This document shows, piece by piece, positions 17,113-29,476 of a DNA stretch of 64,000 nt (position 1 is its first letter; each line of letters begins with the position of its first letter). Where the stretch lies: contig CAWBEI010000002.1 in the NCBI GenBank assembly GCA_963787835.1, positions 672,001 to 736,000 of the forward strand, read 5' to 3'. Both the position numbers and the translations under genes were made by a program. This stretch comes from Ignavibacteriota bacterium. Lineage in GTDB: Bacteria > Bacteroidota > Ignavibacteria > Palsa-1295. Under the pieces are notes generated by a model. That model worked only from the letters and a program-made list of their open reading frames with translations, was not told where the DNA came from and made no database searches.

Positions 17113-18294
17113 TTACTTTAAATCAATATATCTTTTTATTTCGTCTTCATTAAATCCGTATCCCCGAAGTTCCTCAGCACTGAATCCTATCAACTCGGGC
17201 TCTGTATAAAGATGAAGTCCCGTCTTTTCCTCAACGATTTCGCGTACTTCTTTCACGACGGAAAGCACTTCGTCCGCAGTTGCCTCACGCGTTACGTTCA
17301 GCACCACAACCGGCTGAGTTGGATTTAGCTGCACATTCCCACGCTGAAATCCTTTTAGCCCACATGATTCCAGGATAAAAGCCGATGGAATTTTAAGAAA
17401 GGATGAAGGATGAGGGTTGAGGGATGAAGGGACGTATTTTAAAAGCCGTTCGATTTGTTCTGGAATATTCCTTTCGAAATGATCGCGGAGATTTTCGAAT
17501 TGTTCCAGCGATATTATAGAATTCTTGAAGAACGATCCCGCATTCCCTTCGACCGACTCTGCGGGAAATGGGAATTTCCTGTCACGTATGGTTTTGATCG
17601 CTTCACGAATTTCTCTGAGCGATGGCTCGGGATTTTCCTCAAACCATTTTTTTACATCTGGGTATGAAAGATTACGTTTGGGAGTCGTACTTAATACCAG
17701 TGTTGTGTAAAGAATGATGTAACGATTTTTCTCGGTGGTATTGAAGATGCTTTTGCGATAACTAAACTTGCATGCTTCATTCGATAATATCTGAAGAGTT
17801 TTCGTTGTTCGGTCGAAGACCTCTACATTCACCAGCACATCTTTGATTTCCTGCCCGTACGCCCCAACATTTTGCACGGCGACAGCTCCTGCCCTTCCTG
17901 GAATTCGCGAGAGGTTCTCTATTCCCCAAAACTCATGTGATACGGCAAATTTTACCACATCATCCCAAACTTCGCCAGAGGCAATTCGCAGTGTAGCGCA
18001 CATCGTAGGCGATGCTTCTTCAGTTTGCGATCCCGGCGCGGAGTCACAAACTAAAGTTTGCGCTACAATTCCACGATTCGCAATATGAATAACCAACCCA
18101 TCGAACCCTCGGTCACTTACAAGCATATTGCTCCCTCCGCCGAGGATGAGCACTGGCAAATTTTGGAATTCTGCAAACTCGAATGCCTCGCTAAGTTGGG
18201 CAGGATCGGTAATTTCGAAAAAATATCGTGCAGGGCCGCCAATCTTGAAGGTGGTGAGCGGTTTTAGGGGGCGGTTTTGTTCGATGGGAAGCAA
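17113..18294 (-). CDS. murB: UDP-N-acetylenolpyruvoylglucosamine reductase
   Basis: TTFKIGGPA, LGGGSN, GIENLSRIPG, QNVGAYG, FSYRKS, GNAGSFFKN; carries two repeat-derived in-frame insertions. Confidence 0.93.
   Translation of the reverse strand: MLPIEQNRPLKPLTTFKIGGPARYFFEITDPAQLSEAFEFAEFQNLPVLILGGGSNMLVSDRGFDGLVIHIANRGIVAQTLVCDSAPGSQTEEASPTMCATLRIASGEVWDDVVKFAVSHEFWGIENLSRIPGRAGAVAVQNVGAYGQEIKDVLVNVEVFDRTTKTLQILSNEACKFSYRKSIFNTTEKNRYIILYTTLVLSTTPKRNLSYPDVKKWFEENPEPSLREIREAIKTIRDRKFPFPAESVEGNAGSFFKNSIISLEQFENLRDHFERNIPEQIERLLKYVPSSLNPHPSSFLKIPSAFILESCGLKGFQRGNVQLNPTQPVVVLNVTREATADEVLSVVKEVREIVEEKTGLHLYTEPELIGFSAEELRGYGFNEDEIKRYIDLK
17400..17432. repeat. Heptamer array within murB
   Basis: AGGATGA AGGATGA GGGTTGA GGGATGA AGGGA, encoding PSSLNPHPSS. 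Confidence 0.7.
17992..18067. repeat. GTAG-type REP doublet inside murB
   Basis: TGTAGCGCA...TTCAGTTTGCGA...TCACAAACTAAAGTTTGCGCTACA. Confidence 0.75.
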
Positions 18295-25761: not shown

Positions 25762-26451
25762 GTGATCGCTCGCCAAAATACATTCCTCACTCCCGAACTG
25801 GTGCTCGATGCGTACCGCCAAGGACTGTTCCCAATGGCCGATGCGCGTGGCGCAATCAGTTTCTATGCCTACGACCCACGAGGCATTATTCCACTCGATG
25901 ATCGATTCACCGTTCGTCGTTCCCTGCGTCATGTTTTAGAAAAAAAGAATTTTCGCGTTACATTCGATACCGCTCCGCTCGAAATCCTGCGTGGCTGTGC
26001 CCGCTTCGAAGAGAACATTCCCCCTGAGGAACGATGGCTCACCGAAGAACTCATCGAGCTGTATCTAAAGCTCTTTGAACTAGGTTACATGCACACCGTC
26101 GAAGTTTGGGGCATAATGGATAGTGGAAAGTGGATAGAGGATAACAAAGAGTTACCATCCGAACACCAGCCACCCACCGTCAACTATCCACTATCAACTA
26201 CCCTGATCGGTGGACTCTATGGCCTCACCTTCGGCGCGGCATTTTGTGGCGAGTCGATGTTCTCCCGCGCCCCTTACGCCTCACAGATAGCTCTGGTGTA
26301 CCTCGTCGAGCGGCTGCGCAGAAAAGGCTTCCAACTGCTCGACGCCCAAATGCCAAGCGAGCATCTCCAGCAATTCGGACTCTACGAATGCTCGCAGGAG
26401 CAGTATCTTCCGTTATTCCAAACCGCCGCAAAAATGGATGTAAAGTGGTGA
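25762..26451 (+). CDS. aat: Leucyl/phenylalanyl-tRNA--protein transferase
   Basis: AYRQGLFPM, HTVEVW, GGLYG, FCGESMFS, LLDAQ; about 29-aa repeat-derived insertion. Confidence 0.92.
   Translation: MIARQNTFLTPELVLDAYRQGLFPMADARGAISFYAYDPRGIIPLDDRFTVRRSLRHVLEKKNFRVTFDTAPLEILRGCARFEENIPPEERWLTEELIELYLKLFELGYMHTVEVWGIMDSGKWIEDNKELPSEHQPPTVNYPLSTTLIGGLYGLTFGAAFCGESMFSRAPYASQIALVYLVERLRRKGFQLLDAQMPSEHLQQFGLYECSQEQYLPLFQTAAKMDVKW
26116..26202. repeat. Inverted heptamer arrays inside aat
   Basis: ATGGATA GTGGAAA GTGGATA GAGGATA ... AACTATC CACTATC AACTACC. Confidence 0.72.
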
Positions 26452-26474: not shown

Positions 26475-26794
26475 AATTTATTGTCTACAAGAAATAGGTG
26501 CCATTTCTTTTTCTTGCTGAGTTCCCGACTACCCTCGAATTTAGGCCAAATTCGCCATTTGAGGCAAAAGTTATTCACAATTCACTTTCGCGAAGAACTC
26601 GTTCATAACGAAAGCTGCCTTCCCCTCTATTTTCAATGAACTCCCCATTCTTCCCTGATCCCGAAAATCTGTAAATCGAGGTCCATCTTTCATACTTCAT
26701 CTTTCATCTTTTCCCCCGAGGGTGCCCATCACAGTAGATACTAATATACGCACATTATATCCAGAAGTCAAGTGTTTTCCGAAAATAATCGAAA
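26475..26794 (-). other. Conserved non-coding element B (homologue of element A)
   Basis: Begins immediately after the vapC stop; shares the 76-nt head and three blocks with 6562-6829; contains a TTCAT(C/A)(T/C) heptamer run near 26683-26709. Confidence 0.6.
26743..26771 (-). promoter_or_regulatory. Sigma70-type promoter at the head of element B
   Basis: TTGACT-17 nt-TATATT on the minus strand. Confidence 0.65.
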
Positions 26795-26795
26795 T

Positions 26796-27206
26796 TTATC
26801 GATTTGGAGGAAGCCATTCAACCTTGACGCCACGATGTTCCACATTCTCGAACTCTCGATCTCCGGTGAGGATTGGAGTGTCGCGTTCCAGTGCGAGCGC
26901 GGCAGCAAAACAATCGGCATACGACAGGCCGCCATCTGCTTTTAATCGAGCAGCAGAGATCATAACATCGAAACCCGGCATGATAACTTCTATAGGAAGG
27001 GAGCGGATGGTCGCCCGTATTTCCTCGGCTGCACGCTCACCTTTCCTCCGTAGAACAGTGTAATACACTTCGCCAAAATTAATCCCTGAAAGTAAGTGGA
27101 AGTAACCGCCATTGGCGGCGTTATCGAGATGGTTGAGGACGATCCCCGAACCCGTTTGATTCAGGAAAAGAGTGAGGAGAGAAAAACTATCGAGGATGAA
27201 GATCAT
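26796..27206 (-). CDS. vapC: VapC PIN-domain toxin
   Basis: MIFILDS, INFGEVYY, LSYADCFAAALA, ILTGDREF; start reassigned to ATG 27206. Confidence 0.9.
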   Translation of the reverse strand: MIFILDSFSLLTLFLNQTGSGIVLNHLDNAANGGYFHLLSGINFGEVYYTVLRRKGERAAEEIRATIRSLPIEVIMPGFDVMISAARLKADGGLSYADCFAAALALERDTPILTGDREFENVEHRGVKVEWLPPNR

Positions 27207-27474
27207 GGTCCTCCCGGTTTCGTTCGACCTTTTTTTCTTCGAGATAGGAGTCGAACATGGACTTGTCAGTGCCAAGGAGTCCAACGGACTTCTGTATGGC
27301 TTCTTTCATCCGGTCGAGTTCTGGTGATAGTGCTGGCATTTTTATGATAATTTCAGATTCCCGATCCTCGATCATTACCTTAGAACCAGTGTGAAGCCCA
27401 TGCCGCGATCTCACGGGGTCCGGAAGATCGAGATGACCTTGGGAATCGATGATTGATTCATAAGCTCTGTCCAT
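27187..27474 (-). CDS. vapB: AbrB/MazE-fold antitoxin
   Basis: SIIDSQGHLDLPDPVRSRHGLHTGSKV; upstream of and overlapping vapC. Confidence 0.75.
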   Translation of the reverse strand: MDRAYESIIDSQGHLDLPDPVRSRHGLHTGSKVMIEDRESEIIIKMPALSPELDRMKEAIQKSVGLLGTDKSMFDSYLEEKKVERNREDHDLHPR

Positions 27475-27519
27475 AGTTAAGTCCAACCACCGCTGTGGGG
27501 CAGTAGTTCATTCATATTT

Positions 27520-27561
27520 CCCACTTCTTACTTCTTACCTCTTACCTCTTACTTCTTACCT
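27520..27561. repeat. Heptamer tandem array CTTAC(T/C)T x6
   Basis: CCCACTT CTTACTT CTTACCT CTTACCT CTTACTT CTTACCT. Confidence 0.9.
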
Positions 27562-27574
27562 CGGCGAAGCCGGA

Positions 27575-27612
27575 AACCACCTCCGATACCGTAATAAGCT
27601 TCATGACTTCTT
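27575..27612. repeat. Direct repeat copy 1 (duplicate of the GT9 gene 3' end)
   Basis: AACCACCTCCGATACCGTAATAAGCTTCATG identical to 28310-28340, then ACTTCTT after a 1-nt indel. Confidence 0.95.
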
Positions 27613-27628
27613 GGAGCGATTCCTTTCA

Positions 27629-27654
27629 ATTTGTTGTAATATGTTACAACAAAT
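27629..27654. promoter_or_regulatory. Palindromic operator at the higB start
   Basis: ATTTGTTGTAA-TATG-TTACAACAAAT, perfect 11-bp arms overlapping the ATG. Confidence 0.7.
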
Positions 27655-27940
27655 GCATATCATCACTCGGAAGCGCCTTAACGAGTTTGTCGAGAGACAT
27701 CCGGATGCCTTCACGGGTTTCGATGAATGGTACCGCAAGGCCAAGCGAGCAAAATGGCAAAATTTTGCCGAGCTTAAGGCGACGTTCGGCTCCGCAGATC
27801 TGGTCGGAAGATATATTGTCTTTAATATCGGCGGCAATAAATTTCGACTCATTGCAAGCCTCCGATACCAACGGCAGAAAGTATATATCAGAGCATGCTT
27901 AACGCATAAGGAATACGATGAAAACAAATGGAAAGACTAA
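27653..27940 (+). CDS. higB: HigB-family toxin (RelE fold)
   Basis: MHIITRKRL...W...FGSADLVG..VFNIGGNKFRLI...LTHKEYD. Confidence 0.92.
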   Translation: MHIITRKRLNEFVERHPDAFTGFDEWYRKAKRAKWQNFAELKATFGSADLVGRYIVFNIGGNKFRLIASLRYQRQKVYIRACLTHKEYDENKWKD

Positions 27941-28223
27941 ATTAAAATCCGAGAGTAGTGCCGTCATGGCATGGACTCCGTCCTCGCACATCATCAATGT
28001 TCCCGCAAACGAAGCAGAGTACAATGAATTAGTTGCCGTGCTCGATTATTTGCTCGACACCAGCGATCCCGATGAACAAAGCCCGGCCGCTGCGTTAGTG
28101 GATATGATCGGCTCACTCATCGAAAGCTACGAGAACGCAAACGTGCCCGAACTTTCAGCTCCCCGCCGCAAAAGCCGCGCACATCGCCCCATCATTACTC
28201 CTCGCCAATTTAAAGCAGCTTAA
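27918..28223 (+). CDS. higA: HigA-like antitoxin lacking the C-terminal HTH
   Basis: NEAEYNELVAVLDYLLD...LVDMIGSLIESYE N-terminal motif; no Cro-HTH follows. Confidence 0.7.
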   Translation: MKTNGKTKLKSESSAVMAWTPSSHIINVPANEAEYNELVAVLDYLLDTSDPDEQSPAAALVDMIGSLIESYENANVPELSAPRRKSRAHRPIITPRQFKAA

Positions 28224-28246
28224 GGTGCGTCCTCCCCAATTTATAA

Positions 28247-28302
28247 TTCATACTTCATAATTCATACTTCATAATTCATACTTCATAATTCATACTTCAT
28301 AA
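28247..28302. repeat. Tandem array (TTCATAC TTCATAA) x4
   Basis: Perfect 14-mer x4; supplies the last codons and the stop of the GT9 gene. Confidence 0.95.
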
Positions 28303-29476
28303 TTGCCCCAACCACCTCCGATACCGTAATAAGCTTCATGCACTTCTTATGCCCGCAATTATGCACGTTGTAAGGCTTTAAATACCCAAGTTGGAGGCAG
28401 GGAGAACACTCAACTCCTTTGAATACATCAATATGCTTCTCTGACAGACTACGATAGCCCCAATAATCGGACATTCCAAAAACACGGACTGTCGGAGTTC
28501 CGACCGCCATTGCGATATGACCGATACCACTATCATTCCCAATCATTGCATCACATCGCGAAAGCAACGAAGCAACTTCGAAAATAGAATAACTACCAGA
28601 TAAATTGATTGACGATGATTTGACAAATTTTGATGCCTCCTCTATTTGTTCTTTCTCGCTCGCAACCCCGAAATGCAAAAAAACAGGATCATATTCTACT
28701 GAAAGATCACGCAAAACTTCAGCAAACCGATCATCGTCCCATTTTTTCCAATGTTGTGCCTTACTTGCACCAAAGTGAGTTCCTATCACAACTCGACCAT
28801 CAAGCTGATTCTTTAACCAAAAAGATTCAGCAAATTTCTTTTCTGAATCATTCAAAGAAATATTCGGAGTAATGTAGGTAACCTCTTCTCCAATTAATTT
28901 GCTAATTAGCCTTGAATGTCGACTCGTTTCGTGTTCATGATCTTGCTTAAGCCTTACTGAAATATTGAACATTTGGTTGGGACGCGGCTTGTACCATTTA
29001 TCCCAGGAAAAAACGTGACCCACGCGAATCGGCGCGCTAAGTATCGCACTTGTGAAGTAAGGGGTCGGCGACATGTAGGTGCAGATAATTATATCATACT
29101 TTTCTTTCTTAATTTTATGGTTCAAACCTCGTAATTCGGACAATGATAATGATTTGAAATCCGCTTCCAAAACCATGCGGAATTCTCTTCCTTCCATTTG
29201 CATTAGTCTCTGCAGCATTGGTCGGCTTTGGGATTCTGTTCCAACAATAACGTCAATTTGAGCCATCGGAAAAGCGTTGAGAATGGCTCGGAGCGATTGC
29301 TGAAACATGAGAGCATCACCAAGGCCCATATATCCGAAAATGAGGATTTTGATCTGCTCCTCTTGAAATTTCGTGACTTTAGGGTGTTTTGAAGGTTTTA
29401 GGTATGACAGAATGATAGCCAAAACCGTTTTGGTTAGCAGATAAGCAACCTTTAGTCCTCGTGAAAAAATAGCCAA
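28283..29476 (-). CDS. Glycosyltransferase family 9 (heptosyltransferase-like)
   Basis: GLGDALM, HFGAS..WKKW, IGNDSGIGHIAMAVGTPTVRVFG, CSPC...C...CM. Confidence 0.9.
   Translation of the reverse strand: MAIFSRGLKVAYLLTKTVLAIILSYLKPSKHPKVTKFQEEQIKILIFGYMGLGDALMFQQSLRAILNAFPMAQIDVIVGTESQSRPMLQRLMQMEGREFRMVLEADFKSLSLSELRGLNHKIKKEKYDIIICTYMSPTPYFTSAILSAPIRVGHVFSWDKWYKPRPNQMFNISVRLKQDHEHETSRHSRLISKLIGEEVTYITPNISLNDSEKKFAESFWLKNQLDGRVVIGTHFGASKAQHWKKWDDDRFAEVLRDLSVEYDPVFLHFGVASEKEQIEEASKFVKSSSINLSGSYSIFEVASLLSRCDAMIGNDSGIGHIAMAVGTPTVRVFGMSDYWGYRSLSEKHIDVFKGVECSPCLQLGYLKPYNVHNCGHKKCMKLITVSEVVGAIMKYEL
28310..28348. repeat. Direct repeat copy 2 (within the GT9 3' end)
   Basis: Matches 27575-27612. 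Confidence 0.95.

What the first reader, a model, noticed from the sequence alone, without database searches (positions are those of the whole stretch)
27520..28348. higBA cassette bracketed by a duplicated gene 3' end, each copy finished by a different heptamer array
Seen: a 31-bp perfect direct repeat (38/39 with one indel) at 27575 and 28310 encodes MKLITVSEVV of the GT9 C-terminus. The live copy continues GAIMKYEL* using the (TTCATAC TTCATAA)4 array. The orphan copy continues SGFAEVRSKR* using the CTTAC(T/C)T array. Recombination between the repeats would delete about 735 bp (higBA) and swap the enzyme tail. Inference: a gene-end-targeted integration mechanism linked to heptamer arrays, with no recombinase in cis.
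Basis: partly seen in the sequence, partly recalled or inferred. Interest (0 to 1): 0.75.

Follow-up and report, generated by a model that had tools for sequence, protein, structure and literature searches.

The report
Toxin cassettes docked at gene ends
A small toxin-antitoxin gene pair sits between two versions of the end of a sugar-transferase gene, one of more than a dozen such duplicated gene ends in this soil bacterium, likely left when DNA from a relative was spliced in by ordinary recombination using the gene end as a handle; the neighbouring 7-base repeats are likely bystanders.

Summary
In detail: a genome-unique 31-bp repeat (38/39 extended) duplicates the GT9 gene end around a higB/short-antitoxin pair, not an assembly artefact. 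In a congener without higBA (G006) the orphan tail and its array form the live gene end. Another congener (G014) has the live tail plus higBA but no orphan. So two natural alleles of the gene end have been joined. It is not a one-off: 7 of 45 toxin loci in this genome have a gene-end duplication, versus 0 of 300 control genes. The copies differ mostly at silent sites (38 silent, 13 replacement). Relatives show the same, with cassettes stacked in different orders at purB. The heptamer link is not supported: there are 161 arrays genome-wide, and only 1 of those 7 loci has one nearby. [quoted passage not shown] Unexplained: in 18 of 20 co-oriented cassettes the joint lies within 21 bp of the cargo's stop codon. 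The scan has reported this general pattern before in other genomes.

The parts
28283..29476 (-). GT9 (heptosyltransferase-like) glycosyltransferase, host gene, 397 aa
   Evidence: PF01075 E 6e-30; below all NCBIfam heptosyltransferase cut-offs
28310..28348 (-). live copy of the duplicated segment (exact part 28310-28340)
28283..28309 (-). live tail GAIMKYEL*, the G014-type allele, likely the incoming one
   Evidence: G014 ends GAMMKYEL* followed by the same array and higBA
28238..28304 (.). heptamer array (TTCATAC/TTCATAA), part of the G014-type allele; shorter in G014
27966..28223 (+). short antitoxin-like ORF, 85 aa, without the C-terminal HTH half of the longer partners
   Evidence: no family hit; conserved in G014; 12 of 68 partners of related HigBs are 74-87 aa
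27653..27940 (+). HigB toxin, 95 aa, intact here; G014 copy has an internal stop
   Evidence: PF09907 E 4e-30
27629..27654 (+). 11-bp-stem palindrome directly before the higB start, predicted operator
   Evidence: fold z = -3.7, 0 of 200 shuffles; not conserved in G014; function untested
27575..27612 (-). orphan copy of the GT9 end; the joint to the cassette lies at about 27612/27613, where similarity to G014's higB upstream region stops
27542..27574 (-). orphan tail SGFAEVRSKR*, the G006-type allele, likely the displaced resident end
   Evidence: G006 live gene ends SGFGELRSKM* with the same array type
27523..27559 (.). heptamer array (CTTAC(T/C)T), part of the G006-type allele
26796..27486 (-). 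adjacent AbrB-like plus PIN (VapBC-type) pair behind the orphan; no gene-end duplication found around it

Best explanation
The higBA pair and the GAIMKYEL tail likely arrived together on DNA from a close relative and were likely spliced in by host homologous recombination within the last ~60 bases of the GT9 gene, which kept the gene intact and pushed the resident tail with its array downstream as an orphan. The simplest route (inferred) is a small circle carrying gene end + tail + cassette that integrates by one crossover; a linear fragment with one homologous and one illegitimate joint gives the same scar. No dedicated recombinase is needed. Shown: two natural alleles exist in congeners; the pattern recurs at unrelated genes; it is enriched around toxin genes; the copies differ like alleles. 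Inferred: the direction of transfer, the circle, RecA dependence, and persistence because loop-out would remove an addictive toxin-antitoxin pair. The arrays are passengers of the two alleles.
For: G006 live end equals the orphan tail and array; G014 has the live tail, array and higBA without an orphan, and its similarity to G000 ends at the joint. Gene-end duplication at 7 of 45 toxin loci vs 0 of 300 controls, Fisher p 4e-7. Any low-copy bracketing repeat at 11 of 45 vs 5 of 250. In 14 hand-picked G000 pairs: 38 silent vs 13 replacement differences, pS 0.224 vs pN 0.022; a fresh copy drifting neutrally predicts a silent fraction of 0.37 vs 0.75 seen, p 5e-8. Targets are unrelated genes (purB, prs, holA, nrdJ-type RNR, MacB, DEAD helicase and others), and by eye the 13 joints show no shared motif. 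At purB the same ParE and DUF2283-like cassettes are stacked in different orders in G000, G002 and G009, each followed by its own orphan. Precedent: 56 of 60 E. coli clones gained a 109-950-bp duplication by single crossover with a trimmed circle (PMC3240628). ComEC and DprA domains are present (weak, they also hit 10 and 11 of 14 control genomes).
Against: At this locus the two copies are identical over 31 bp, so the allele test says nothing here directly. G006 is not a fully syntenic empty site (its downstream gene differs), and G014 could have lost an orphan rather than never had one. No circle or deletion joint was seen (low depth, contigs only). Random joints do not explain why 18 of 20 co-oriented cassettes end within 21 bp of the cargo stop codon, or why two different purB cassettes start their orphan at the same codon. 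38 of 45 toxin loci show no gene-end duplication. The silent-site test ignores transition bias and uses cases I selected.
Confidence: 0.68

Rival explanations
1. The cassettes are trimmed remnants of larger events: an integrase island, or a longer tandem duplication, whose dispensable DNA was deleted up to the addictive toxin-antitoxin genes.
For: It would explain joints flush with the cargo stop codon. Island att sites can carry a silent-site-diverged gene end (established knowledge, no call). One phage-type integrase and one split resolvase exist on contig C4.
Against: More than a dozen unrelated targets, with no integrase-like ORF among the 80 ORFs scanned. The same cassette with the same joint recurs at different array positions in different species, so the trimmed form itself moves. 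Short duplications are missing: of 39 pairs, 31 scored 6-9 (background), none 10-13, and 8 scored 14-41.
Confidence: 0.17
2. A dedicated but unidentified system acting in trans (a recombinase or an RNA-templated route) cuts cassettes at ORF boundaries and inserts them at gene ends.
For: Joints lie -2 to +21 bp from the cargo stop in 18 of 20 co-oriented cassettes, against 39% of ordinary downstream gaps at or below 21 bp. Two purB cassettes share an orphan start.
Against: No shared joint motif by eye; orphan starts range from -34 to -142. No reverse transcriptase domain (PF00078; genome 98% complete). The tyrosine recombinase domains are XerC-like, XerD-like and one phage-type, none best matched by the integron integrase model. 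Oppositely oriented cassettes such as this one keep a promoter region instead.
Confidence: 0.1
3. One reading: heptamer arrays are part of the integration mechanism.
For: Both copies here end in an array, although only 56 of 2632 gene ends have one within 60 bp. One intergenic, multi-copy repeat around a PemK locus also touches arrays.
Against: Only 1 of 7 duplicated toxin loci has an array within 700 bp; arrays are near 13% of toxin loci and 9% of controls. Both arrays are already attached to the respective alleles in G006 and G014, which have no duplication.
Confidence: 0.04
4. Assembly artefact.
For: No single contig spans the orphan copy.
Against: The orphan tail matches the live end of another species, which an assembler cannot invent. 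Contigs match both flanks of the orphan with no differences.
Confidence: 0.01

Closest known systems
Insertion with long target duplication of restriction-modification genes (PMC2853133; passages and section 15 read)
   Same: Addictive gene cassette, no other mobile element, unique repeat over 30 bp of variable length, often spanning a start or stop site, mostly in competent species.
   Different: Cargo here is type II toxin-antitoxin (the term has 0 occurrences in that paper), so the DNA-breakage cause proposed there is not supplied by the cargo. The copies behave as two alleles rather than one copied target. Many sites per genome.
rhs C-terminal displacement (PMC2935791; passages read) and Vibrio T6SS effector-immunity displacement (PMC5361080; passages read)
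   Same: An incoming gene end displaces the resident end to a silent downstream position; variable core length; serial stacking; circle or homology-facilitated model.
   Different: There the swapped tip is the selected payload within one gene family. Here the hosts are unrelated core genes, the tail is probably neutral, and the payload is the gene pair behind it.
Single-crossover insertion-duplication and homology-facilitated illegitimate recombination (PMC3240628; section 12 and passages read)
   Same: Experimentally yields a partial duplication of the homologous end without a recombinase.
   Different: Laboratory plasmid substrate, 109-950-bp duplications, very rare; no flush ends described in what I read.
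Microcystis ParDE-like module fenced by 152-bp direct repeats (PMC7935541; passages read)
   Same: A toxin-antitoxin pair bracketed by long direct repeats next to a gene end.
   Different: The repeat begins 14 bp after the stop codon and is non-coding; a single case.
Intergenic heptamer repeats of Beggiatoaceae, Cyanobacteria and Bacteroidetes (PMC4679880; abstract and section 23 read)
   Same: Abundant short period-7 arrays at gene boundaries, function unknown.
   Different: Different unit sequences; no integration role shown there or here.

Membership tests
Insertion with long target duplication | unique direct repeat longer than 30 bp | tested here: met
   31 bp exact, 39 extended, 2 copies in the genome
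Insertion with long target duplication | no other mobile element in the insert, insert under 20 kb | tested here: met
   735 bp holding two ORFs; recombinase domains lie elsewhere
Insertion with long target duplication | empty site with both flanks in a related genome | tested here: inconclusive
   G006 has the orphan tail as its live end but a different downstream gene; only other species were available
Insertion with long target duplication | restriction-modification cargo (as originally defined) | tested here: not met
   cargo is HigB plus a short partner
Tyrosine/serine-integrase island or its remnant | integrase or remnant in cis | tested here: not met
Tyrosine/serine-integrase island or its remnant | fixed crossover core shared among sites | tested here: inconclusive
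   no shared motif across 13 joints by eye; two of three purB cassettes share a start codon position
Integron cassette array | integron integrase in the genome | tested here: not met
   three PF00589 domains, best hits XerD, XerC and a generic tyrosine recombinase model
Integron cassette array | attC-like hairpin at the cassette end | tested here: inconclusive
   no unusual folding of either GT9 copy region (z -0.9 and +0.7); no attC model was searched
rhs-type C-terminal displacement | orphan end is a formerly live allele | tested here: met
rhs-type C-terminal displacement | polymorphic toxin host gene with functional variable tip | tested here: not met
   host is a GT9 enzyme; tails vary freely among orthologues
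Homologous-recombination minicircle | excised circle, RecA dependence | not testable with these tools
   no joint in four low-depth contig sets
HigBA type II toxin-antitoxin | HigB toxin with toxin-first gene order | tested here: met
HigBA type II toxin-antitoxin | HTH-bearing HigA antitoxin | tested here: not met
   85 aa, no family hit; resembles the N-terminal half of the 133-157-aa partners

The most novel reading that the evidence does not exclude
Toxin-antitoxin pairs in this lineage form a class of recombinase-free mobile units: gene-end handle, tail and cassette, trimmed flush to the cargo's stop codon. They excise as minicircles between their repeats, spread between strains and species, re-dock at the same core gene end, stack in changing order, and resist loss through addiction. 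This would be a general, testable answer to how lone chromosomal toxin-antitoxin operons move without any mobility gene.
Probability: 0.3. Interest if true: 0.72.

Novelty: new variant of a known kind. Interest (0 to 1): 0.45.

Why it matters
How lone chromosomal toxin-antitoxin operons arrive and persist is described as not understood (PMC2654758, passages read). Here a sixth of toxin loci in one genome carry a readable scar with two allelic gene ends, defined joints and stacking order. That makes the route testable with a synthetic minicircle or population long reads. The mechanism class is known from RM systems and rhs loci. What remains unusual is the toxin-antitoxin cargo, the density, the use of core genes as handles, and the joints flush with stop codons.

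Tried and rejected
Heptamer link: rejected. cannot test it fairly, because its filter drops repeats that run into arrays (it missed this locus itself, L133). Array proximity was not counted for the curated cases in relatives. Excision or circle in reads: none listed in 4 runs, contigs only, low depth, one study; no RNA holder listed. Metagenome scan with GT9 gave 4 loci at 63-68% identity; their downstream DNA was not examined. Reverse transcriptase: no PF00078 match. Integron integrase: not the best model for any of 3 domains. Of 32 G000 regions fetched, I dropped those that were tandem paralogues, non-coding or multi-copy repeats, or unclear; 14 pairs went into the codon test. Four regions look like duplicated gene starts or non-coding segments rather than gene ends. 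For purB 6 of 13 loci, and for the DEAD helicase 2 of 14, were not evaluated because my end motif failed. Paper searches for a toxin-antitoxin version of this mechanism listed no paper describing it; most subscription papers are not in that library and no supplements were read. (heptamer searches) gave only PMC4679880 as relevant; other hits were seen as listings only. The look-up for look-alike stretches and one word look-up were empty.

Full report
OBSERVATION. The repeat is there as described: 31 exact bases at 27575 and 28310, 735 apart, unique in the genome up to 5 mismatches, 38 of 39 when extended. On the minus strand the right copy lies in the end of a GT9 glycosyltransferase gene (PF01075) and continues GAIMKYEL* into one heptamer array. 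The left copy has no gene in front of it and continues SGFAEVRSKR* into another array. Between them, on the plus strand, lie higB (PF09907), an 85-aa partner with no family match, and a palindrome just before the higB start. Low-depth contigs from four runs of one study match the live copy across its whole length and the orphan copy from each side. No deletion or circle joint was listed.

TWO NATURAL ALLELES. Among 60 relatives searched, seven congeners had a close GT9 orthologue and one more (G014) had its last 42 codons at a contig end; the 3' end was visible in seven of these eight. None of the seven has a duplication. G006 ends SVAEVVSGFGELRSKM* followed by the same array type as the orphan, with no higBA behind it; its downstream gene differs from the window's, so it is an empty gene end but not a fully syntenic empty site. 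G014 ends TVSEVVGAMMKYEL*, followed by the live-type array and orthologous partner and higB genes, but has no orphan. Its similarity to the window stops where the orphan begins, a few bases from the stop codon of an unrelated gene (similarity is weak in that spacer). The window therefore joins a G014-type end and cassette to a G006-type end, each with its own array. This rules out an assembly artefact and makes the arrays passengers. The direction (G014-type incoming) is inferred; G014 could instead have lost an orphan.

A GENOME-WIDE PATTERN. Of 2632 ORFs of 120 aa or more, 19 have their 3' end repeated downstream outside a long ORF, versus 2 for mid-gene segments, 4 for 3' ends repeated upstream, and 7 and 9 for 5' ends (all sets include tandem paralogues). 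Of 32 regions fetched, 14 pairs including this one were kept as non-paralogous gene-end duplications. Hosts include purB, prs, holA, a ribonucleotide reductase, a MacB permease, a B12-binding protein and a DEAD helicase (Pfam domains; gene names are my reading of them). Cargo includes ParE, PIN_3, PIN, HicA/HicB and DUF2283, with weak HicA and Gp49/antidote hits. Four cargos have no toxin-antitoxin match. Unbiased test: 7 of 45 toxin loci have a gene-end duplication, versus 0 of 300 control ORFs drawn from 2007 (for the HicA locus the script scored a paralogue, but the 510-bp orphan is shown). Any low-copy bracketing repeat: 11 of 45 versus 5 of 250, and two of those five controls are cassettes of the same kind. 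Most toxin loci (38 of 45) show no gene-end duplication.

THE COPIES ARE ALLELES. Over the 14 pairs there are 38 silent and 13 replacement differences (pS 0.224, pN 0.022; 37 of 51 at third positions), far from a fresh copy drifting neutrally (transition bias not modelled, cases hand-picked). Both ends were thus under selection as live gene ends in different lineages. At this locus itself the copies are identical, consistent with a recent event between close strains or later homogenisation.

RELATIVES. An automatic, uncurated scan found gene-end duplications at 8 of 30 ParE and 5 of 30 PIN loci in the genus, 7 of 25 HigB loci in the family, and 13 of 80 HigB loci from GTDB. Some hits rest on spurious ORFs and one locus is counted twice; convincing ones include Nitrospira records. 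The closest HigB record is titled Ignavibacteriota. Orphans occur at purB in 3 of 7 evaluated genomes, prs in 2 of 14, and the DEAD helicase in 3 of 12 (sites chosen because G000 has them). At purB a ParE cassette is first in G000 and second in G002, and a DUF2283-like cassette is first in G002 and last in G009, each followed by its own orphan. Cassettes therefore move and stack as units.

HEPTAMERS. The genome has 161 period-7 arrays against 0-15 for other periods. They lie within 700 bp of 6 of 45 toxin loci, 28 of 300 controls, and 1 of 7 duplicated loci. They resemble the unexplained heptamer repeats of PMC4679880 (abstract and section 23 read), and nothing ties them to the insertions.

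MECHANISM. No recombinase lies in cis. The genome has XerD-like, XerC-like and one phage-type tyrosine recombinase, one split resolvase and no reverse transcriptase domain. By eye the joints share no motif. I favour host homologous recombination with incoming DNA that carries a relative's gene end, through a small circle or a linear fragment with one illegitimate joint (0.68). A laboratory precedent gives such duplications (PMC3240628, section 12 read), and the circle model was proposed for rhs tips (PMC2935791, passages). Persistence through addiction is inferred. One feature is not explained. Counting by hand from the 37 rows, with shared cassettes counted once and oppositely oriented or unclear ones set aside, 18 of 20 co-oriented cassettes end -2 to +21 bp from the last cargo stop codon (17 within 13 bp). 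The two exceptions (49 and 115 bp) carry non-toxin cargo. Ordinary downstream gaps are this short in 39% of genes. The cargo ORF was chosen by proximity and is unannotated in several cases. Duplications scoring 10-13 are absent while 8 of 39 score 14-41, which hints at a minimum handle length. These points keep deletion-trimming (0.17) and an unknown dedicated system (0.10) alive.

COMPARISON. [quoted passage not shown] It is a member of neither as defined, because the cargo and host genes differ. Four searches listed no paper describing it for toxin-antitoxin operons; a single Microcystis case has non-coding repeats. Earlier notes of this scan report the same general pattern in unrelated genomes (unchecked AI notes), and two of them led me to PMC2853133 and PMC2935791.

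VERDICT. Real, part of a recurrent genome-wide pattern, a new variant of a known kind; the heptamer hypothesis fails. Interest 0.45.

Noticed in passing
window 27966-28223; L151-L161, L166: HigB relatives across several phyla have a short 74-87-aa partner lacking the HTH half (12 of 68 partners, including the closest hits): a possible antitoxin subtype without its own DNA-binding domain.
   Followed up: partly
G000:C3:332700-333230; L233, L274: The purB end is a stacking site for several toxin-antitoxin-type cassettes in different orders among congeners.
   Followed up: yes
L051:1002-1813, L048:968-1391, L049:965-1392: Duplicated gene 5' starts also occur (LPG synthase with a PemK cassette, EamA, aconitase), the mirror image of the finding.
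   Followed up: partly
L135, L141: G001 and G009 carry a similar HigBA-type cassette at the end of the same ~450-aa gene, each with an orphan; the host was not annotated.
   Followed up: partly
window 17399-17430 and 26113-26200: Heptamer arrays, one as an inverted pair, sit in frame inside murB and the Leu/Phe-tRNA protein transferase gene and add low-complexity peptide inserts.
   Followed up: no
window 26640-26720; L052:938-1858: A composite repeat of about 60-140 bp next to heptamer arrays (22 genome matches) brackets a PemK locus and resembles the spacer left of the VapBC pair.
   Followed up: no
L027 (G014:C23:4280-4486): G014's higB has an internal stop while its partner is intact; real decay or sequencing error not resolved.
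   Followed up: no
L034, L036: Larger non-toxin cargo (3.5 kb TPR/LuxR regulator plus a secreted-type protein; 4.3 kb apparent two-component system) also lies between duplicated gene ends.
   Followed up: partly
purB, prs and DEAD helicase loci L230-L272: The gene downstream of these core genes differs in nearly every congener; gene-end capture may contribute to this low synteny (speculation).
   Followed up: no
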